Assembly (NCBI GenBank): GCA_018660965.1
Contig: JABJJH010000037.1
Location: 1 to 45,868 of the forward strand
Direction: 5' to 3'
DNA from: Rhodospirillaceae bacterium
GTDB taxonomy: Bacteria > Pseudomonadota > Alphaproteobacteria > UBA8366 > GCA-2717185
DNA: 45,868 nt
Below the pieces are notes generated by a model, which was not told the DNA's origin, made no database searches, and saw only the letters and a list, made by a program, of their open reading frames with translations. Of this stretch, positions 7,900 through 22,020 are shown one piece after another (position 1 is the first letter of the stretch; each line of letters begins with the position of its first letter). A program made the position numbers and the translations under genes.

Positions 7900-8589
7900 A
7901 TGACTGCTTTCGCCATCCCGACCTGGGAAACGCCCTCTATCCCCATCACCGGCGCCGCCAACGCTTTTCCGGTCCGGCGCATTTATTGTGTTGGGCGGAA
8001 CTACGCGGCCCATGCTCGTGAAATGGGGCATGACCCGGATCGCGAACCGCCGTTTTTCTTCACCAAACCCGCCGACGCCATCGTTCCCAACGGCGCAGGG
8101 ACCCCTTATCCCGTTCAAACCACGAATTTGCACCCGGAAATCGAGATGGTCGTCGCCCTTGCAACCGGCGGCAAGGACATTCCACTCGACCAGGCGAACG
8201 ACTGTATTTACGGCTATGGCGTCGGGCTTGATCTGACACGCCGTGATATGCAGGGCGTCGCCAAGGATATGGGCCGCCCTTGGGACATGTCCAAGGGATT
8301 TGATCATTCCGCCCCGGTTACATCGATAACCCCGATATTTCAATGCGGTATTATTGAATCGGGGCGGATATCTTTAACGGTGAACGGCGAGCTTCGCCAG
8401 GATTCGGATTTAAACGCCATGATTTGGAGCGTCCCTGAAACTATTAACTACTTGTCCGGGTTGATTGAATTGAAACCAGGCGACCTTATTTTCACCGGCA
8501 CCCCCGATGGCGTCGCCGCCATTGAGCGAGGCGACGTTCTGGAAGGCCATGTCGATGGGCTCGAAACTTTAAAAACCACGATGATTTAA
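7900..8589 (+). CDS. Fumarylacetoacetate hydrolase (FAH) family protein
   Basis: Motifs RIYCVGRNYAAHAREMG, PFFFTKP, EIEMVVA, GDLIFTGTPDGV. Confidence 0.9.
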   Translation: MTAFAIPTWETPSIPITGAANAFPVRRIYCVGRNYAAHAREMGHDPDREPPFFFTKPADAIVPNGAGTPYPVQTTNLHPEIEMVVALATGGKDIPLDQANDCIYGYGVGLDLTRRDMQGVAKDMGRPWDMSKGFDHSAPVTSITPIFQCGIIESGRISLTVNGELRQDSDLNAMIWSVPETINYLSGLIELKPGDLIFTGTPDGVAAIERGDVLEGHVDGLETLKTTMI

Positions 8590-8599
8590 GGCGCGAAAA

Positions 8600-9394
8600 A
8601 TGCGGCTTGCAACATGGAACATTAATTCGATTCGATTGCGTATCGATTTATTGAAACGCCTGACTGAAGAGCAATCGCCCGACGTCATTTGTCTGCAGGA
8701 AACCAAGGTAGTGGACGATTTGTTCCCGGCGGACGCGGTTAAGGCCTTGGGCTACCTTCACATCGCGTTTCACGGGATGAAAGGATACAATGGCGTCGCG
8801 ATCTTATCCCGCCAGCCCTTGGAGGCCGTGGAGTCGCTCCAGTGGTGCGGAAAACAGGATTGCCGTCATCTGAGCGCCGTATTGCCAGGTGATATCGAGC
8901 TTCATAACTTCTATGTCCCCGCCGGTGGTGACACGCCCGACCCCGAAGAGAACGATAAATTCGCCCACAAACTGGCGTTTCTCGACGAAATGAACGCCTG
9001 GTTCACCGCCAACAGGTCTTCGAGCCGCAAGATGGTGCTGGTGGGCGATCTGAATATCGCGCCACTGGAATCGGATGTCTGGTCCCACAAACAATTATTG
9101 AAGGTCGTGTCCCATACTCCAATCGAGGTTGAGAAACTAACCGCCATCCAGACACAATCGGATTGGGTCGATGCGGTCCGACAATTTATTCCGGAACCGG
9201 AACGATTGTACAGTTGGTGGAGCTATCGATCCCGCGATTGGACCAAGGGGGACCGGGGGCGACGCCTTGATCATGTCTGGGTCAGCCCGCCCTTACGCGA
9301 TTTTCTATCCGGGGCCACCGTGCTTCGCGACGCGCGGAGCTGGGAAAAACCCTCGGACCATGTTCCGGTCATCGTCGATATAAACACCGACTGA
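8600..9394 (+). CDS. xthA: Exodeoxyribonuclease III
   Basis: MRLATWNINSIR...VICLQETK...GDLNIAP...RLDHVW...SDHVPV; full EEP-fold ExoIII motif set. Confidence 0.92.
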   Translation: MRLATWNINSIRLRIDLLKRLTEEQSPDVICLQETKVVDDLFPADAVKALGYLHIAFHGMKGYNGVAILSRQPLEAVESLQWCGKQDCRHLSAVLPGDIELHNFYVPAGGDTPDPEENDKFAHKLAFLDEMNAWFTANRSSSRKMVLVGDLNIAPLESDVWSHKQLLKVVSHTPIEVEKLTAIQTQSDWVDAVRQFIPEPERLYSWWSYRSRDWTKGDRGRRLDHVWVSPPLRDFLSGATVLRDARSWEKPSDHVPVIVDINTD

Positions 9395-9454
9395 ACTAGG
9401 CGTCAAAACTATTTAATTGCGTAATAAACTGAAAGTTAATCGGTCAGCACGCCA

Positions 9455-9946
9455 CTACACCTTTTGATACCCGTAGTAACGGCCCGCACAAACATCGCTT
9501 GGCACTGCTATCGTTTTAAATTCTGAAATTCGCTCAAGGGATTGATCACAATACACGAACCCGCCTTGGCGAAGGAGGCCTGGCAGGAGCGGCCCTATCG
9601 CCGCGACATTGCGTTCGGTCGCTTCCGCGTCCCCATACCCGATATCGGCATGGATCAGCGCGGCATTCGGGCCCAGTTTCGCCGCCGCCGCAACCAAAGT
9701 GTCCGCCATGGCGCCCAGAAACAACCGATCCTCGGGGGGCCGACAATCGGGATGGGACGCAACTTCCTTGTCGAAAACATAAATGTTACGATTTGGAAAC
9801 AAATTCCGTAAATGATCGTATGTGCGCCCATTGCCGAGCCCAAGCTCCAGAATATGACCCTGTGAGTTACCGATATGGTCGACGGCGGCGTTCAGGCAAC
9901 TCCGTTGCGCCTTCAGGCGGCCAATGACCGCGTCCAGTCGGGACAT
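9455..9946 (-). CDS. Small class I SAM-dependent methyltransferase-like protein
   Basis: ILELGLGNGRTYDHL resembles SAM-binding motif I. 163 aa. The start lies 1 nt after the stop of the upstream cNMP-binding gene, so they are likely coupled. Confidence 0.55.
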   Translation of the reverse strand: MSRLDAVIGRLKAQRSCLNAAVDHIGNSQGHILELGLGNGRTYDHLRNLFPNRNIYVFDKEVASHPDCRPPEDRLFLGAMADTLVAAAAKLGPNAALIHADIGYGDAEATERNVAAIGPLLPGLLRQGGFVYCDQSLERISEFKTIAVPSDVCAGRYYGYQKV

Positions 9947-9947
9947 G

Positions 9948-10400
9948 TTACTGGGAATTCGCCACGGCTTCGCGGAGCCGCACCGTGGTTACTTCAAGCC
10001 GGTGCGCCAGTTCACGCATGATTTCGACCGCAATTTGCGGAAATTCAACGACGAGGCTGAAAAATAAATCCTTGGTGATCCGCAGCGTTGTTACCTCTGT
10101 TTTCGCTTTCACCGTCGCAGTTCGCGGTACATCGCAAAGGATCGCAATCTCGCCAACGATTTCATTTTCGTCCAGTGTCGCCACGACAAGCGGGCCGCCC
10201 GGAGTATCCACCACAACATCGGCTTTCCCACCGATAATGATATACGCCGCATCCCCCGCGTCGCCCTGCTCGAACAACACATCGCCTTCCGCATAGGTCA
10301 GGCGTTCGCTGGTGAACGCCAGCAATTTCAGCTTCGATGGTTCGATTTTCGAGAAAAGTGGAATCTTTCGAAGGAGTTCCACCTCATCCAATAAGCCCAT
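9948..10400 (-). CDS. Stand-alone cyclic-nucleotide-binding (CAP/PKA-type CNB) domain protein, no output domain
   Basis: FEQGDAGDAAYIIIGGKADV...GEIAILCDVPRTATVKA is the phosphate-binding cassette pattern. The 150 aa end right after the C-helix, with no HTH. AGGAG lies upstream of the ATG. Confidence 0.85.
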   Translation of the reverse strand: MGLLDEVELLRKIPLFSKIEPSKLKLLAFTSERLTYAEGDVLFEQGDAGDAAYIIIGGKADVVVDTPGGPLVVATLDENEIVGEIAILCDVPRTATVKAKTEVTTLRITKDLFFSLVVEFPQIAVEIMRELAHRLEVTTVRLREAVANSQ

Positions 10401-10454
10401 TTCGGCGTCTCCTTGACCAGCGGCGCGGCGCCGACGGCTTCATGGTTAATACAG

Positions 10455-10496
10455 TTTATCACATGAATGCATTAATTTATCACATGAATGCATTAA
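10455..10496. repeat. Perfect tandem direct repeat, 2 x 21 bp (TTTATCACATGAATGCATTAA)
   Basis: Read directly: 10455-10475 and 10476-10496 are identical. AT-rich island in the 108-bp gap between the ABC exporter stop (10509) and the cNMP-binding gene start (10400). Confidence 0.95.
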
Positions 10497-10508
10497 AAAG
10501 AGGTGAAA

Positions 10509-13175
10509 TTATCCCTCATCCAGCAATGTCTTGAATTCACCGTCTTTCGAGGACAGGTCGTCGAATGACCCACTTTGCGCGACACGGCCATCCTTCATAA
10601 CAATGATTTCATTAAAACTCTTGGCGTCGCCGATGCGGTTTAAGACCCAAACAAGGCCCTTACCCTGCCGTAGCTTCAGGAGGTTCTCTAAAATTTTCAC
10701 CTGAGAAGATTGGTCTAGGCTGACCCCTGCTTCGTTCAGAATCAAAAGCTTAGGATCCTTGATCACCGCGCGCGCAATCGCCAGTTTCTGACGTTGGGCC
10801 TGTGACAAACGCGCGCCGCCAATGCCGGCGGGGAAATCCAGCCCAACCGTGATGACGGTCTGACGTAATTCAAGGCTATCGATGACATCGCCAATCACCG
10901 CGCCCATCTTGGCCGCCGATTGCGCCTGTCCATAAGCCAGTTTGCCAAACAGGATATTGTCCTGCAGCGACGCCGAGGGGTTGTAGGCGTCGACATCGAA
11001 AAAGGCGATCTTGTCGCGCAACGTCTCCGGCAAATCCCTGGCGAAAACCTCACGGGCTTCAAGGATGCGCTCCATCATCCGCTCGTCGATCAAATCGAGA
11101 CGATGACGCGCCGGACTTAACATGAAGGGCAGCGACTCCAGCCTCAGCCGGTCTTCTTCCGTCAACCCCTCCACGCCGCGCGCAGCGCGCCCAAGCAAGG
11201 TCTGGTAGTCCGGCAAGTCTTCGGAATCAATAAAGCTGAACTGTTCAAAAAATTCGTGTCCAGGCGGCAAATCGGCGAACAACTCGACCATGGTCTGCGC
11301 AACATTCTGCCCCATTGTCAGAAAGTCGTCGCTGAGTCCGACCGTGTCGAGAACCTGACGCATATAGGGGTGTTCCGCCAATTTTTCGAGATCGAACGAA
11401 TCGTCCGCGGGCAAGCCAAACAAGATGTTTTCGGCCACCGTCGCATTCGTGTTGAAACGGGATTGATCGAAAGGCTCGATCAGCGGCGCGATTTCCGGTT
11501 CCGACAAGCGGTCGCGCAACAACCGGCGGGCGGACATTATTCGATCCGCGATATCGCCGCGCCGGGTAGGGTCAATCGTCCCCCGCAGCCCCATTTGGTA
11601 GACGTCCTCCGACAAATCCACCATCGACAGCAATTCATTGACCCGTTCCATCATCTCTTCGCGCCCCGACACTCCCGCCGCCGCATAGTCGATCCAGTCC
11701 GCGTTGTAGTCATGCGGCGAATTGCCGGTTACGTCCGCTTCTCCCTTTTCCAACTCGGCCCGTGTGGCCTCCTCGCCGTCGTATTCATGCGCGACCACGG
11801 GACGATGCTTAAGGCCATAAACCAAATTGTCGCCAACGGAAAACGCCTGCAGATACGCACTCGACCCGACATAGGCGATGTCCCGACCGGTAACGGCCTC
11901 GGGCATATTGGCGATGTCCTGGCCCCCGAACAGCACCCTGCCGCTGGTCGGCGTCAGAAGCCGGGCCAAGACTTGAGCCAAGTCGTCCTTTCCGCTGCCG
12001 CTCGCCCCGACAATCGCCAAATGTCCATCGCACTGCGCCGTAAAGGAGACAGCCTCAAGCGAACGCACCCCGTCTTCATCGGAAAGGCTGACGTTGTTGA
12101 CCGCAAGCTCAGCCGTAATGGGCGACGAAGCGGTCGGTTCGTCATGCTGCAGATGTTCTTCCAGCATGCCTTGCGGCTCGAACTGTTCGACCACTTGTTC
12201 ATATTTGATGCGGACATCCTCTTTCTGTTGGTACCAGGCCAACAGTTCCTTCCACGGACTGGCTAAATCCTTGTAGGCGTTCAACACCGCCACCAGTGCG
12301 CCGACGGTTAGTTCGCCTTCGATCACCAGAAAGCCGCCAATGGAAAAGAAAAAGAACGGCGTCAGCTTATCAATGAAATTGTTGAGGAACTTAACGAAGA
12401 ATTTTCGCCGGTAAATTTCATAGCGAATCAGGTAAATCCCGCCCAATCGATTGGCGAAGCGGGCCATTTCCAGATTCGACGTATCATGCGCGTGAATTTC
12501 GCCGATACCCGACACCGATTCGCCAAGATGGTCCGCCAACCGCCGCACGTTCTGGACGCGCTGCTTGCCAAGGGCGTTCACCTTTTTTTGCAATTTCGGG
12601 ATAATGAAGCCTTGCACGGGAATCAGCGCCGCCGCCGCCAAACCAAGCTTCCAGTCCTGCAGCAGGATGTACCCGATAATCAGCGCCAGTTGACCGCCAA
12701 AAAACAACGGGTCGGCGAAAGCGATGCCGATAAACCCGCCCAGCGGCTCGACTTCCGCCGTGATCATCGGAATCAATTCGCCCTGACTGACTTTTTTAAA
12801 ATGCGGAATGGGGAAGCGGAGAATCCTCGTGTAAAGTTGATAGCGTAGCCGCCGCAGCAAGCGTTCCCCCATCCGGCCCTTGAACACGCTGATGTAGTAT
12901 TTGAAGCCGCCGGTTATGAAAACCAGCGCCAAATACGTGAAACTTAAAATAAGCAGAAAGGTCAGCTGCGATACGTCGAATTCGATTTCATACCCGAAAA
13001 TCGGCGCTTCGAATATGTCGCCGCCTGCATTCGGTTTGATCGCCCGGTTGACGATAATCTTTGGCAAATCGAGCGAAACGAACAAAAACGGATAGAACGC
13101 GAGGATCACGCATAACAGATAAATCTGCTGCGCCGCGCTATAGCGCAAAATATATTTGAAGATTGATTTTTCCAT
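10509..13175 (-). CDS. ABC exporter-type fused permease/nucleotide-binding protein with degenerate ATPase motifs and an enlarged NBD
   Basis: About 350 aa N-terminal six-helix ABC exporter TMD. The NBD has Walker A GASGSGKD, signature LSQAQ, Walker B LLILNE, D-loop SLD and H-loop position VLNRI. About 390 aa separate Walker A from the signature motif. Confidence 0.85.
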   Translation of the reverse strand: MEKSIFKYILRYSAAQQIYLLCVILAFYPFLFVSLDLPKIIVNRAIKPNAGGDIFEAPIFGYEIEFDVSQLTFLLILSFTYLALVFITGGFKYYISVFKGRMGERLLRRLRYQLYTRILRFPIPHFKKVSQGELIPMITAEVEPLGGFIGIAFADPLFFGGQLALIIGYILLQDWKLGLAAAALIPVQGFIIPKLQKKVNALGKQRVQNVRRLADHLGESVSGIGEIHAHDTSNLEMARFANRLGGIYLIRYEIYRRKFFVKFLNNFIDKLTPFFFFSIGGFLVIEGELTVGALVAVLNAYKDLASPWKELLAWYQQKEDVRIKYEQVVEQFEPQGMLEEHLQHDEPTASSPITAELAVNNVSLSDEDGVRSLEAVSFTAQCDGHLAIVGASGSGKDDLAQVLARLLTPTSGRVLFGGQDIANMPEAVTGRDIAYVGSSAYLQAFSVGDNLVYGLKHRPVVAHEYDGEEATRAELEKGEADVTGNSPHDYNADWIDYAAAGVSGREEMMERVNELLSMVDLSEDVYQMGLRGTIDPTRRGDIADRIMSARRLLRDRLSEPEIAPLIEPFDQSRFNTNATVAENILFGLPADDSFDLEKLAEHPYMRQVLDTVGLSDDFLTMGQNVAQTMVELFADLPPGHEFFEQFSFIDSEDLPDYQTLLGRAARGVEGLTEEDRLRLESLPFMLSPARHRLDLIDERMMERILEAREVFARDLPETLRDKIAFFDVDAYNPSASLQDNILFGKLAYGQAQSAAKMGAVIGDVIDSLELRQTVITVGLDFPAGIGGARLSQAQRQKLAIARAVIKDPKLLILNEAGVSLDQSSQVKILENLLKLRQGKGLVWVLNRIGDAKSFNEIIVMKDGRVAQSGSFDDLSSKDGEFKTLLDEG

Positions 13176-19632: not shown

Positions 19633-20126
19633 ACGCCGCCCACCAATACCCCCTGAACAGCCTTTACGGCGATTACATTCGCGCGGCGATCGGCGTGGGA
19701 TTTTGCAGTGTCCCTTTATCTTTTGTTAACGACAGCCCAGTATTGTTAACCATTCTTGCCGGAGTCTTATTATTATTCTTGGGCTTTGGCGCGAAGACGG
19801 CCATGCGGCATTTGACCGTCATTCAAACCGAAGAAGAAGGCATCATCGCCAACGGACCATTTGGTCGGCGGATCGCCTGGCGGGATATTAATAAGGTAGC
19901 CCTTAAATTTTATTCGACGCGCCGTGATACTAAAGAAGGTTGGATGCAATTGACGATATTCGGCGCAACGGGAAAATTGACGATCGAATCCTCTTTGGAC
20001 GGGTTCAACGATGTCGCCAATTCCGTCATTCAGGCCGGTTTTCGCAACAACGCGCAAATGGACGAAACGACAATGGAAAATGTCGCCGCCCTGGGCATTG
20101 TCGTTGATATGGCGGATGGAGCGTAA
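19629..20126 (+). CDS. Hypothetical small membrane protein (two predicted helices plus a beta-rich, PH-like C-terminal domain)
   Basis: ATGA overlap with the upstream stop. Hydrophobic stretches [14 protein letters not shown] and [16 protein letters not shown], then [18 protein letters not shown]...[16 protein letters not shown]. Confidence 0.5.
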
Positions 20127-20130
20127 AAGA

Positions 20131-22020
20131 ATGTCGCCCGCCTTGCTCAGCATCGAAAACCTGAAGGTCCAGTTCACCTTGCCCGAAGGTATTATCGAAG
20201 CGGTCAAAGGCGTTTCCTTTCAAATTCAGCAAGGCCAGACCGTAGCTCTGGTCGGTGAATCCGGATCGGGGAAATCCGTCATCTCACAATGCATCATGGG
20301 CATCCTGCCCAAGGCCGCGTCAATTTCGTCGGGCCGGATTTTATACAATGACCCGAAAGACCCGGGAGACGCGATCGACATCGCGGCGCTCAACCCGGAC
20401 AGCGCGGCGATGCGCGCCGTCCGCGGCAGCCACATCTCCATAATTTTTCAAGAGCCAATGACGTCCCTGTCACCGCTGCACACGGTCGGCGATCAGGTCA
20501 GCGAAGCGCTTCATCTGCATCGCAAAACCAGCAGGGCGGAAGGGCTGGAGATCACCCAGGATATGCTGCGTCTAGTCGGATTCCCCGACCCGGCTCGCGC
20601 GCTACGAACCTATCCGTTTGAATTATCCGGTGGTCTGCGGCAACGCACGATGATCGCCATGGCGCTGGTGTGCCGCCCCAGCCTGTTGATCGCGGACGAA
20701 CCGACGACGGCGCTTGACGTCACGATCCAGGCGCAGATCCTCAAATTGCTCCGCGATCTTCAAGGCGAACTCGGTATGGCCGTACTGATGATTACACATG
20801 ACCTTGGCGTCGTCGCCAACATGGCGGAAAACATCGTCGTCATGCATCATGGCGAAGTTATGGAGTCCGGGGGCCTCAACGACATTTTTCGCAATCCCCA
20901 ACACCCCTACCTCAAAGCGCTGCACAAGGCCGTACCGCGCTTCGATTTGGCGCCCGGCGAACGCTTGGTGCCCATTCGCGAAATCGAACATCACAAGGGC
21001 TTCCTTCAAGAAGCAAAGGAGCCTTGGCCGGAAACCGCCGGCGCGGAAGCGCCCCTGCTGAAGGTGGAAAACCTGTCCAAAGCATTCCAGATTCGCAAAA
21101 GCAGCCTCTTCGGCGGCGCGGCGGGACAGGTCAAGGCAGTCGATGGCGTCAGCTTCGAAATCCCCCGCGGCGAATGTCTGGGCCTTGTCGGGGAAAGCGG
21201 CTGCGGCAAAACCACATTGTCGAAAATGCTGATGCGCGCGCTGTCGCCCGATACCGGCGCGGTGACCTATAACGACCGCGGCGCGCTTGTCGATGTGTTG
21301 GCGCTAACACAACATGAATTAACGTCCTTTCGCCGCAAGATGCAGTTTATCTTTCAAGATCCCTTCAGCTCGCTTAATCCCCGCATGCCGGTCTTCGACA
21401 TCATCACCGAACCGCTGGTCATTCATGGAATCGGCGATGACGATAGCCGCCGGGAAGCGGCGCGCGAGTTGATGCGCCTGGTCGGTTTGGACGTTCGGCA
21501 TCTCAACCGCTATCCGCACAGTTTTTCGGGCGGCCAACGCCAACGCATCGGCATTGCCCGCGCCCTGGCGCTGCAACCCGATTTGTTAATTTGCGACGAA
21601 CCGGTCTCCGCGCTGGATGTATCAATTCAGGCGCAAATCCTCAACCTTCTCAAAGATTTGCAGACCGAGCTCGGGCTTACCTATTTGTTCATTTCCCACA
21701 ATTTAGCGGTCGTGAACTATATTGCCGACAACATCGCGGTCATGTGCCACGGGCAACTGGTCGAACAAGCCCCGCGCGACATTTTGTTCAAACGACCAAC
21801 GCACCCCTACACCCAGGCGCTGCTGCAAGCCGTGCCGGAAGCCAATCTGAACGCACCGTTGAATTTCGATCATCTCATGGCGGAAAAGGCGTCCACGCCA
21901 TCACAATGGCCGCACCCCTTCGCCGATTTAGACGGAACCCGCCCTGTTCTGCGGGACATCGGAGATGGCCATATTGTCCGCGCTTTGGCGGACGCCGAAA
22001 TTCGGGAACCAGCATCGTGA
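20131..22020 (+). CDS. Fused double-NBD ABC ATPase of a PepT (peptide/opine/nickel) type importer
   Basis: Two complete cassettes: [28 protein letters not shown] and [31 protein letters not shown] 20131 is preceded by GGAG. Confidence 0.92.

What the first reader, a model, noticed from the sequence alone, without database searches (positions are those of the whole stretch)
10929..11888. About 290-aa expansion inside the NBD containing three copies of the post-Q-loop motif
Walker A (aa 390-397) and the signature motif (aa 790-794) are about 390 residues apart, versus roughly 100 in ordinary ABC NBDs. The stretch that normally follows the Q-loop occurs three times: SVGDNLVYG (aa about 446-454), ATVAENILFG (578-587, nt 11415-11447) and ASLQDNILFG (735-744). 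The copies are 130-160 aa apart. This suggests an internal triplication of the helical-subdomain region. Such an elaboration could create extra binding or regulatory surfaces, for example for the adjacent cyclic-nucleotide-binding protein.
Basis: seen in the sequence. Interest (0 to 1): 0.6.

Follow-up and report, generated by a model that had tools for sequence, protein, structure and literature searches.

The report
ABC exporter with triplicated Q-loop/helical segment
The ATP-binding domain of this ABC-exporter-like membrane protein holds three diverged tandem copies of one of its own sub-parts; this layout is conserved in hundreds of alphaproteobacterial species, always beside or fused to a cyclic-nucleotide sensor, and I found no published description of it.

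Summary
The gene at 10509-13175 (-) encodes an 888-aa ABCB-type half-transporter. Its Walker A and signature motifs are 400 residues apart, against a median of 103 in 29 ordinary NBDs of the same genome. The post-Q-loop motif occurs three times, and these are its only three occurrences in the genome's six-frame ORFs.

The repeat extends well beyond the short motif. Profile-profile comparison gives 90-98% probability for all three pairs over 55-64 columns; 20 controls stayed at or below 8.8%. Each copy maps onto the same Q-loop and helical-subdomain columns of a canonical NBD profile. About 125 residues of the insert (457-504, 625-697) resemble nothing known.

Copy 2's motif is invariant in 173 family members, whereas the catalytic residues are mostly lost. 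The downstream cNMP-binding gene is adjacent in 8 and fused in 3 of 12 relatives examined.

My best reading is an old internal triplication that enlarges the helical lobe of a degenerate NBD, probably as a docking platform for the cyclic-nucleotide sensor. The platform role is inferred, not shown. I could not determine how the copies are arranged in 3D.

This scan has already noted the same family in six other genomes.

The parts
10509..13175 (-). Gene for the 888-aa ABC half-transporter-like protein (P0001)
   Evidence: Intact ORF. Pfam ABC_membrane matches aa 70-298 and ABC_tran matches as a split hit. Most family members are also about 888 aa.
12156..13175 (-). Transmembrane domain, aa 1-340, type IV exporter fold
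   Evidence: PF00664 E=2e-21. The AF2 model has six long helices. Foldseek top hits are TmrAB, PCAT1, TM287/288 and P-glycoprotein.
11880..12143 (-). N-terminal part of the NBD core, aa 345-432, with Walker A GASGSGKD (aa 390-397, nt 11985-12008)
   Evidence: Matches ABC_tran profile positions 1-80. Walker A position confirmed.
11808..11918 (-). Copy 1, first half (aa 420-456): pre-Q strand IAYV, Q-loop with Ser in place of Gln, and SVGDNLVYG
   Evidence: hhalign against the canonical NBD profile: prob 96.6%, E=5.9e-10, profile columns 67-106. Against copy 3: 94.9%.
11664..11807 (-). Family-specific insertion inside copy 1 (aa 457-504), with conserved E479, G484 and W494
   Evidence: No similarity to the NBD profile (prob 0.1%). 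Invariant residues. Helix 468-483 in the AF2 model.
11583..11663 (-). Copy 1, second half (aa 505-531): helix pair VNELLSMVDLSEDVYQMGLR
   Evidence: Aligns to the matching helix pairs of copy 2 (prob 85%) and copy 3 (80%). It follows motif 1 in the same order as in the other copies.
11505..11582 (-). Linker and long helix (aa 532-557) leading into copy 2
   Evidence: AF2 helix 540-557. It aligns with helix 698-713, which precedes copy 3. Similarity to the signature helix is not significant.
11304..11504 (-). Copy 2 core (aa 558-624): strand IEP, ATVAENILFG, and helix pair MRQVLDTVGLSDDFLTMG
   Evidence: hhalign against copy 3: prob 98.1%, E=1.3e-13, 64 columns. Against the canonical NBD profile: 80.1%, E=1.4e-5. 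N583 and G587 are invariant in 173/173 sequences, E582 in 166 and F586 in 168.
11085..11303 (-). Family-specific helical extension of copy 2 (aa 625-697), including the motif ELFADLPPGHEFFEQFSFI
   Evidence: Residues 634-697 of this part are the most conserved segment of the insert (mean top-residue frequency 0.67). No significant similarity to the NBD profile (prob <1%), Pfam or PDB.
11037..11084 (-). Long helix (aa 698-713) leading into copy 3
   Evidence: AF2 helix 698-713. Aligns with helix 540-557.
10827..11036 (-). Copy 3 (aa 714-783): strand AFF, ASLQDNILFG, and helix pair IGDVIDSLELRQTVITVG. This is the copy continuous with the signature motif.
   Evidence: hhalign against the canonical NBD profile: prob 98.4%, E=5e-15, profile columns 83-157. 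Pfam ABC_tran positions 61-135.
10512..10826 (-). C-terminal part of the NBD core (aa 784-888): signature LSQAQ, Walker B LILNEA (Asp replaced by Asn), D-loop SLD, and Asn at the H-loop position
   Evidence: hhalign against the canonical NBD profile: 99.5%. Motif states and their family-wide frequencies.
9948..10400 (-). Partner gene: stand-alone 150-aa cNMP-binding protein (P0002) with an intact phosphate-binding cassette GEIAILCDVPRTA
   Evidence: PF00027 E=2e-19. Adjacent in 8 and fused in 3 of 12 related loci. Fused to the C-terminus in 9/9 long relatives examined. The cassette is conserved in 9 of 11 partners.
9455..9946 (-). Small SAM methyltransferase (Methyltransf_17), the last gene of the operon
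   Evidence: PF12692 E=7e-49. Directly downstream of the cNMP gene in 3 of the 12 related loci, and elsewhere within the 20-kb stretch in 2 more.

Best explanation
The NBD of this ABCB-type half-transporter carries three tandem, diverged copies of one segment. The segment runs from the beta-strand before the Q-loop, through the Q-loop and the (S/T)hx(E/D)NhhFG helix, to the next helix pair of the alpha-helical subdomain, with about 60-65 alignable residues per copy. Copy 1 (aa ~420-531) continues from the Walker A lobe and carries a 48-aa family-specific insertion. Copy 2 (aa ~558-624) is free-standing and is followed by a ~75-aa family-specific helical extension. Copy 3 (aa ~714-783) leads into the signature motif and Walker B.

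Shown: the copies are homologous to each other and to the canonical segment. The architecture is ancient in a large alphaproteobacterial family and is under purifying selection. The canonical ATP-hydrolysis residues are largely lost. The gene is functionally tied to a cNMP-binding protein.

Inferred: two internal tandem duplications in the family ancestor enlarged the helical lobe, which is the lobe that normally talks to the TMD coupling helices. The extra modules now serve as an ordered platform through which the cNMP sensor controls NBD/TMD conformation. Export or gating of the product of the divergent glycosyltransferase operon would then be governed by a second messenger rather than by fast ATP turnover.

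My odds: triplication about 0.9; functional constraint on the extra copies about 0.85; cNMP-sensor docking platform about 0.35.
For: Repeat homology: on a 173-sequence alignment, hhalign gives copy 1 vs 2 at 90.1% (E=1.6e-6, 55 columns), 1 vs 3 at 94.9% (E=4.2e-8, 62 columns) and 2 vs 3 at 98.1% (E=1.3e-13, 64 columns). Twenty reversed or unrelated controls reached at most 8.8%. A single-sequence BLAST of copy 2 against copy 3 gives 29% identity over 80 aa, E=1.8e-5.

Mapping onto a canonical NBD: against a profile of 29 canonical NBDs from the same genome, each copy lands on the same Q-loop/ENI columns, at 96.6, 80.1 and 98.4%.

Predicted structure: in the AF2 full-length model the region has pLDDT 85-93. 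All three copies show the same strand-to-helix spacing: E433 to H447, E566 to H580, and E723 to H737.

Conservation: copy-2 residues N583 and G587 are invariant in 173/173. The insert is as conserved as the TMD and more conserved than the NBD core. A relative at about 25% identity still shows all three copies.

Degenerate catalytic site: Walker B Asp is Asn in 122/173, the H-loop position is His in only 23/173, and the Q-loop position is Gln in only 20/173. Only 2/173 keep Walker A Lys, Walker B Asp-Glu and the H-loop His together.

Link to the cNMP sensor: it is adjacent in 8 and fused in 3 of 12 loci from different families. All 9 long relatives examined have a C-terminal cNMP domain. The phosphate-binding cassette is conserved.

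Distribution: 3423 hits among 90%-identity clusters, 874 clusters at 50% identity, and at least 535 species genomes.
Against: No coordinates or PAE were available, so I could not tell which copy occupies the canonical helical-subdomain position, or whether the extra copies are exposed. Foldseek with the isolated insert model found nothing (best E=0.82), so there is no structural confirmation that copies 1 and 2 adopt the helical-subdomain fold. The isolated model also lost the short strands. Contact between the insert and the cNMP protein is untested. One related locus (L022) has the insert but no cNMP gene within the 20-kb stretch examined. cNMP-type domains also occur on ABC exporters that lack such an insert (HetC, PMC10986499), so the sensor does not need the insert in principle. 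About half of the insert has no detectable relation to NBD parts.
Confidence: 0.55

Rival explanations
1. The extra copies are mainly architectural. They lock the two NBDs of the homodimer into a permanent or semi-permanent dimer, as the C-terminal regulatory domains of MalK or MetN do. This would replace ATP-driven dimerisation in an NBD that no longer hydrolyses ATP. The cNMP sensor would then act elsewhere.
For: Catalytic residues are degenerate across the family. One clade has lost Walker A altogether. The insert is ordered and conserved.
Against: There is no evidence for inter-subunit contacts, because only a monomer was modelled and no coordinates were available. The Walker A Lys is still kept in 134/173 members, which suggests that nucleotide binding still matters.
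Confidence: 0.2
2. The extra helical modules dock other partners from the conserved gene cluster, such as the glycosyltransferases or the small methyltransferase. This would couple synthesis of the unknown glycoconjugate to its export.
For: A GT28-like gene is divergent and adjacent in 7 of 12 related loci. The GT4, GT4, histidine phosphatase and second GT28-like genes are co-conserved.
Against: No fusions between the ABC protein and any GT or methyltransferase were seen. The only fusions seen involve cNMP, with or without GGDEF. Methyltransferase adjacency is less constant than cNMP adjacency.
Confidence: 0.15
3. The extra copies are a decaying relic of an old duplication and have no present function.
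For: Copy 1 and the extensions are strongly diverged. The extensions match nothing.
Against: The copy-2 motif is invariant in 173/173 sequences that are as little as 27% identical overall. The insert is more conserved than the NBD core. The insert length is kept even in relatives at 21-27% identity.
Confidence: 0.05
4. There is no real repeat. A short motif recurs by chance inside an unrelated inserted domain, or the gene model is an assembly artefact.
For: Foldseek and HMMER do not recognise the insert as NBD-like.
Against: hhalign gives 90-98% against controls of at most 8.8%. The motif occurs nowhere else in the genome. The same 888-aa architecture is found in thousands of independent assemblies.
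Confidence: 0.03

Closest known systems
Homodimeric type IV (ABCB-like) bacterial ABC exporters: MsbA, Sav1866, PCAT1 core, TmrAB, NdvA/ChvA, HepA
   Same: One TMD (PF00664) is followed by one NBD in a single chain. The fold is that of TmrAB, PCAT1 and TM287/288 by Foldseek (E about 1e-18). The best NCBIfam similarities are to MsbA, HepA, HlyB and ChvA.
   Different: All NCBIfam scores fall far below the family cut-offs, for example MsbA at 197 bits against a cut-off of 602. The NBD is split by about 260-295 extra residues that hold two further copies of the Q-loop/helical segment. The Walker B Asp, H-loop His, Q-loop Gln and the signature GG are replaced.
HetC of Nostoc PCC 7120, a PCAT-type ABC exporter with a cNMP-type domain (PMC10986499)
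   Same: It is an ABC exporter that depends on a cyclic-nucleotide-binding-type domain. That domain is required in vivo.
   Different: In HetC the domain is N-terminal and fused, and it sits next to a C39 peptidase. It bound ppGpp rather than cAMP in vitro. The HetC ATPase catalytic residue is essential, and no NBD insertion is described. Here the sensor is a separate downstream gene (C-terminally fused in relatives), its cNMP phosphate-binding cassette is intact, there is no peptidase, and the NBD is degenerate and triplicated.
Soluble ABC ATPases with large insertions between the Q-loop and the signature motif: Rad50/SMC coiled coils, and the UvrA insertion and UvrB-binding domains (own knowledge, not tested here)
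   Same: The topological site of insertion is the same: after the Q-loop lobe and before the signature motif. The inserted material is used for partner or substrate contact.
   Different: In those proteins the inserts are coiled coils or unrelated domains, not repeats of the NBD's own helical subdomain. They are not membrane transporters and they keep active ATP sites.
Regulatory elaborations of transporter NBDs: the CFTR regulatory insertion and R domain, the ABCF arm and linker, and the C-terminal regulatory domains of MalK, MetN and ModC (own knowledge, not tested here)
   Same: Extra NBD-attached elements act as sites of regulation or partner binding.
   Different: None of them is an internal repeat of the Q-loop/helical-subdomain segment. 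Their positions differ, and most are disordered or have unrelated folds.
Heterodimeric exporters with one degenerate nucleotide-binding site: TM287/288, TmrAB, MsRv1273c/72c, CFTR (PMC7756269 and PMC12038006, which I listed but did not read in full)
   Same: They show non-consensus Walker B, H-loop or signature residues.
   Different: Those proteins retain one consensus site. Here a single gene, presumably forming a homodimer, would make both sites degenerate. They also lack the triplication.

Membership tests
ABC transporter, type IV exporter fold (ABCB-like half-transporter) | Six-helix ABC_membrane TMD followed by an NBD in one chain | tested here: met
   PF00664 E=2e-21 over aa 70-298 and PF00005 E=2e-18. 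Foldseek matches TmrAB, PCAT1 and P-glycoprotein at E about 1e-18.
ABC transporter, type IV exporter fold (ABCB-like half-transporter) | Contiguous NBD with about 100 residues between Walker A and the signature motif | tested here: not met
   The distance is 400 residues, against a median of 103 (range 79-126) in 29 NBDs of the same genome. Profiles match only aa 348-470 and 766-887.
Catalytically competent ABC ATPase | Walker A GxxGxGK[ST] | tested here: inconclusive
   The sequence is GASGSGKD: the Lys is present, but the Mg-coordinating Ser/Thr is replaced by Asp. Across the family, Lys is present in 134/173 and Ser/Thr in 52/173.
Catalytically competent ABC ATPase | Walker B hhhhDE, H-loop His, Q-loop Gln and signature LSGGQ | tested here: not met
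   The sequence has LILNEA (Asp replaced by Asn), Asn at the H-loop position, Ser at the Q-loop position of copy 1, and LSQAQ. Only 2/173 family members keep Lys, Asp-Glu and His together.
MsbA / HepA / NdvA-ChvA / HlyB equivalogs (NCBIfam) | Score above the curated cut-off of the family model | tested here: not met
   MsbA scores 197.5 against 602, HepA 171.9 against 725, HlyB 162.7 against 725, and ChvA 123 against 585.
HetC-like PCAT with a cNMP-type domain | N-terminal cNMP-type domain plus a C39 peptidase domain fused to the exporter | tested here: not met
   No cNMP or peptidase domain is present in P0001. The cNMP domain is a separate downstream gene, and in relatives it is fused at the C-terminus.
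Internal tandem repeat of the Q-loop/helical-subdomain segment (the claim itself) | Pairwise homology of all three copies beyond the 9-10-residue motif | tested here: met
   hhalign gives 90.1, 94.9 and 98.1% over 55-64 columns, with controls at or below 8.8%.
Internal tandem repeat of the Q-loop/helical-subdomain segment (the claim itself) | The three copies adopt the same 3D fold as a canonical helical subdomain | tested here: inconclusive
   The DSSP element order and the 14-residue strand-to-helix spacing are the same in all copies. However, no coordinates were available, and Foldseek on the isolated insert found no NBD.
cNMP-binding domain (the partner, P0002) | PF00027 fold with the phosphate-binding cassette GE..A....PR[ST]A | tested here: met
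   PF00027 E=2e-19. The cassette GEIAILCDVPRTA is conserved in 9 of 11 partners. Ligand binding itself was not tested.

The most novel reading that the evidence does not exclude
The two extra Q-loop/helical modules may form pseudo coupling-helix grooves. In place of a TMD coupling helix, they would capture a helix of the cNMP sensor, for example its C-terminal helix, in a ligand-dependent way. That would turn an ABC-exporter scaffold with a dead ATPase into a translocator or channel gated by a second messenger and independent of ATP hydrolysis, serving the product of the neighbouring glycosyltransferase operon.
Probability: 0.12. Interest if true: 0.85.

Novelty: new variant of a known kind. 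Interest (0 to 1): 0.62.

Why it matters
ABC NBDs are among the most conserved protein modules known, and their helical subdomain is the part that passes conformational change on to the membrane domain. A family in more than 500 species that has triplicated exactly this element would be a natural experiment in how the ABC scaffold can be rewired from ATP drive to second-messenger control. That family keeps the extra copies under stronger selection than the catalytic residues and always pairs with a cyclic-nucleotide sensor. It also marks the exporter of an uncharacterised, widely conserved glycoconjugate pathway. Cultured hosts are available for experiments: Azospirillum halopraeferens DSM 3675, A. 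soli, Inquilinus, Sneathiella and Kordiimonadales IMCC3096.

Tried and rejected
1. A longer repeat unit. I tested whether the unit extends to the signature helix, Walker B or D-loop. This would mean helices 540-557 and 698-713 are signature-helix homologues, ELFADLPPG is Walker B, and GLTEEDRLRL is the signature. The slices 457-504, 530-566, 623-700, 623-668 and 660-716 scored prob <1% against a canonical NBD profile, the same as reversed controls. I rejected this as unsupported. Only the roughly 60-residue core is repeated.

2. Pfam and PDB sequence searches with the insert alone found no family and no structure.

3. An AF2 model of the isolated insert (pLDDT 81, pTM 0.57) searched against the PDB with Foldseek gave a best E of 0.82, with only generic helical bundles. 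This is uninformative for the fold question.

4. No model coordinates are delivered to the Python box. I therefore could not superpose the copies, identify the copy that contacts the coupling helices, or check exposure of the insert.

5. I looked for two-copy intermediates or family members without the insert. All full-length hits down to 21-27% identity cover the whole insert. The shorter hits are truncated contig-end fragments.

6. Three literature searches found no description of this architecture. Only HetC is a partial precedent.

7. Chance recurrence of the motif is rejected.
Full report
**What is there.** The finding lies inside one intact minus-strand gene, 10509-13175, which encodes an 888-aa protein. 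Pfam sees an ABC exporter transmembrane region (PF00664, aa 70-298) and a split ABC_tran domain. NCBIfam gives only sub-threshold similarity to MsbA, HepA, HlyB and ChvA; each model matches in two stretches, ending near aa 455 and resuming near aa 717. A profile of 46 family members searched against PDB sequences matches canonical exporters only over aa ~348-470 and ~766-887.

**The observation.** Walker A and the signature motif are 400 residues apart. In 29 canonical NBDs taken from the same genome the median distance is 103 (range 79-126). The pattern [ST][ILVM]x[ED]N[ILVM][ILVM][FY]G occurs three times in 1.81 million residues of six-frame ORFs of this genome, and all three are in this protein.

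**Is it a true repeat beyond the motif?** It is.
- A plain BLAST of aa 540-700 against 690-888 aligns 80 residues at 29% identity, E=1.8e-5.
- Profile-profile comparison on slices of a 46-sequence alignment gave copy 2 vs copy 3 at 97.4% (E=1.4e-11, 75 columns) and copy 1 vs copy 3 at 86.5%.
- With a broader 173-sequence alignment (27-88% identity to the query), all three pairs are significant. Copy 1 (420-560) vs copy 2 (558-716) gives 90.1%, E=1.6e-6, 55 columns. Copy 1 vs copy 3 (714-810) gives 94.9%, E=4.2e-8, 62 columns. Copy 2 vs copy 3 gives 98.1%, E=1.3e-13, 64 columns.
- Twenty controls, using reversed profiles, TMD slices or other NBD slices, reached at most 8.8% with E of at least 0.0038.
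- The alignments span two colinear elements. The first is the pre-Q strand, Q-loop and (S/T)hx(E/D)NhhFG. The second is a helix pair: VNELLSMVDLSEDVYQMGLR, MRQVLDTVGLSDDFLTMG and IGDVIDSLELRQTVITVG.
- As an independent test I built a profile from 29 canonical NBDs of the same genome. Each copy aligns by itself to the same Q-loop/ENI columns of that profile, at 96.6%, 80.1% and 98.4%.

**What is not repeated.** Residues 457-504 (inside copy 1), 530-566 and 623-716 show no significant similarity to any NBD part; probabilities are below 1%, like the reversed controls. I had considered a longer unit reaching the signature helix, Walker B or D-loop, and I reject it as unsupported. The insert alone matches nothing in Pfam or among PDB sequences.

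**Structure.** AF2 on the 46-sequence alignment gives a confident model: mean pLDDT 82, with 85-93 across the NBD and the insert. The full model matches type IV exporters such as TmrAB, PCAT1, TM287/288 and P-glycoprotein at E about 1e-18. In the DSSP string the three copies share the same order of elements and the same 14-residue spacing from the short strand to the ENxxFG helix: E433 to H447, E566 to H580, and E723 to H737. Copies 2 and 3 are each preceded by a long helix (540-557 and 698-713).

The insert modelled alone is still ordered (pLDDT 81, pTM 0.57). It loses confidence at aa 525-533, the second helix of copy 1's helix pair, whose motif-1 partner lay outside the slice. That is consistent with each copy packing as its own module. 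Foldseek with this isolated model found nothing (best E=0.82). No coordinates were available to me. I therefore cannot say which copy sits in the canonical position against the coupling helices, nor confirm fold identity by superposition.

**Family and selection.**
- The insert region finds 3423 proteins among 90%-identity clusters and 874 clusters at 50% identity.
- It is present in 32 of 401 sampled genomes of the phylum.
- At least 535 GTDB species genomes encode a relative, nearly all labelled Alphaproteobacteria. They include cultured Azospirillum halopraeferens, A. soli, Inquilinus, Sneathiella and Kordiimonadales IMCC3096.
- Most members are about 880-890 aa. Relatives at only 21-27% identity still cover the whole insert, and a relative at about 25% identity shows three recognisable copies. 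The triplication therefore predates the family's radiation.
- Copy 2 is the best conserved: N583 and G587 are invariant in 173/173, E582 is kept in 166 and F586 in 168. By comparison, copy 1 has D449 in 123 and N450 in 134.
- By mean conservation, the copy-2 core and its extension equal the TMD and exceed the RecA-like core.

**The catalytic site.** It is degenerate across the family. The Walker B Asp is Asn in 122/173 and Asp in only 21. The H-loop position is Asn in 81 and His in 23. The Q-loop position is Gln in 20. The signature is LSxxQ. The Walker A Lys is kept in 134, but the following Ser/Thr in only 52. Only 2/173 keep Lys, Asp-Glu and His together. One distant clade, which has the cNMP domain fused, has lost Walker A entirely.

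**Context.** The gene is followed on the same strand by a 150-aa cNMP-binding protein (9948-10400) and a small Methyltransf_17 enzyme (9455-9946). It is divergently transcribed from a cluster of GT28-like, GT4, GT4, histidine phosphatase and GT28-like genes and a peptide-type ABC importer.

In 12 loci taken from different families, the cNMP gene is directly downstream in 8 and fused in 3. The GT28-like gene is divergent and adjacent in 7. All nine relatives of about 1020-1200 aa that I examined carry a C-terminal cNMP domain, and two of them add GGDEF. The partner's phosphate-binding cassette (GEIAILCDVPRTA) is intact and is conserved in 9 of 11 partners.

**How it most likely works.**
- Shown: a triplicated Q-loop/helical-subdomain segment, an ancient origin, purifying selection on the extra copies, decay of the hydrolytic residues, and a conserved genetic link to a cNMP sensor, including fusions.
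- Inferred: two tandem duplications enlarged the helical lobe. Copies 2 and 3 are the most alike, so they either split last or copy 1 diverged faster. The extra ordered modules and their family-specific extensions then provide the surface through which the cNMP sensor controls the NBD/TMD conformation. The exporter of the neighbouring GT product would thus be switched by a second messenger rather than driven by fast ATP turnover. I put about 0.35 on this platform role.
- Rivals: a permanent-dimer scaffold (0.2), docking of the biosynthetic enzymes (0.15), a neutral relic (0.05) and no real repeat (0.03).

**Comparison with known systems.** The protein works like, and folds like, a homodimeric type IV ABC exporter. 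It fails the membership tests for any named equivalog, for a contiguous NBD, and for a consensus ATP site.

HetC of Nostoc is the nearest published case of an ABC exporter that needs a cNMP-type domain. In HetC, however, the domain is N-terminal and bound ppGpp in vitro, the ATPase catalytic residue is essential, and no NBD insertion is described (PMC10986499). Large insertions at the same topological site are known from Rad50/SMC and UvrA (my own knowledge), but those are not self-repeats. Three literature searches found no description of this architecture.

**Earlier notes of this scan.** The same family has been noted and followed up in six other genomes, with concordant readings. A neighbouring report describes the conserved gene module of about 17 kb, and I re-tested part of it.

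**Verdict.** The regulatory-surface idea is plausible but untested. I rate it a new variant of a known kind, with interest 0.62.

Noticed in passing
window 10455-10496 (the gap between the ABC gene and the cNMP gene): There is a perfect 21-bp tandem duplication, TTAATGCATTCATGTGATAAA x2 as read on the minus strand, in the 108-bp AT-rich gap upstream of the cNMP-binding gene. Each unit contains TGTGA, a CRP-type half-site, but no inverted partner is present.
   Followed up: partly
L023 (G176:C1) 8169-11364 and L024 (G132:C1) 8176-11416: A distant clade at about 25% identity has the cNMP domain fused at the C-terminus. L023 has lost the Walker A motif altogether (VAIQSSSEAERAAF) while keeping three recognisable copies of the repeat. 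In both loci the cNMP phosphate-binding cassette has also diverged.
   Followed up: partly
relatives P0185 (1156 aa) and P0227 (1206 aa): Two family members carry cNMP_binding followed by a GGDEF (diguanylate cyclase) domain at the C-terminus. This links the scaffold to c-di-GMP signalling as well.
   Followed up: no
window 9946-9948: The stop codon of the cNMP-binding gene and the start codon of the Methyltransf_17 gene are 1 nt apart, which suggests translational coupling. In the 12 related loci the methyltransferase lies directly downstream of the cNMP gene in 3, and elsewhere within the 20-kb stretch in 2 more.
   Followed up: partly
window 20011-22020: This gene encodes a 669-aa protein with two ABC_tran domains and oligo_HPY tails, that is, a fused DppD/DppF-type importer ATPase. 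It sits at the end of the glycosyltransferase operon and is co-conserved with the exporter locus in at least 6 of 12 relatives.
   Followed up: partly
P0001 aa 54-67 (window ~12975-13016): AF2 predicts a beta-hairpin (E54-59 and E62-67) in the first extracytoplasmic loop between TM1 and TM2. This is an unusual feature for a type IV exporter TMD.
   Followed up: no
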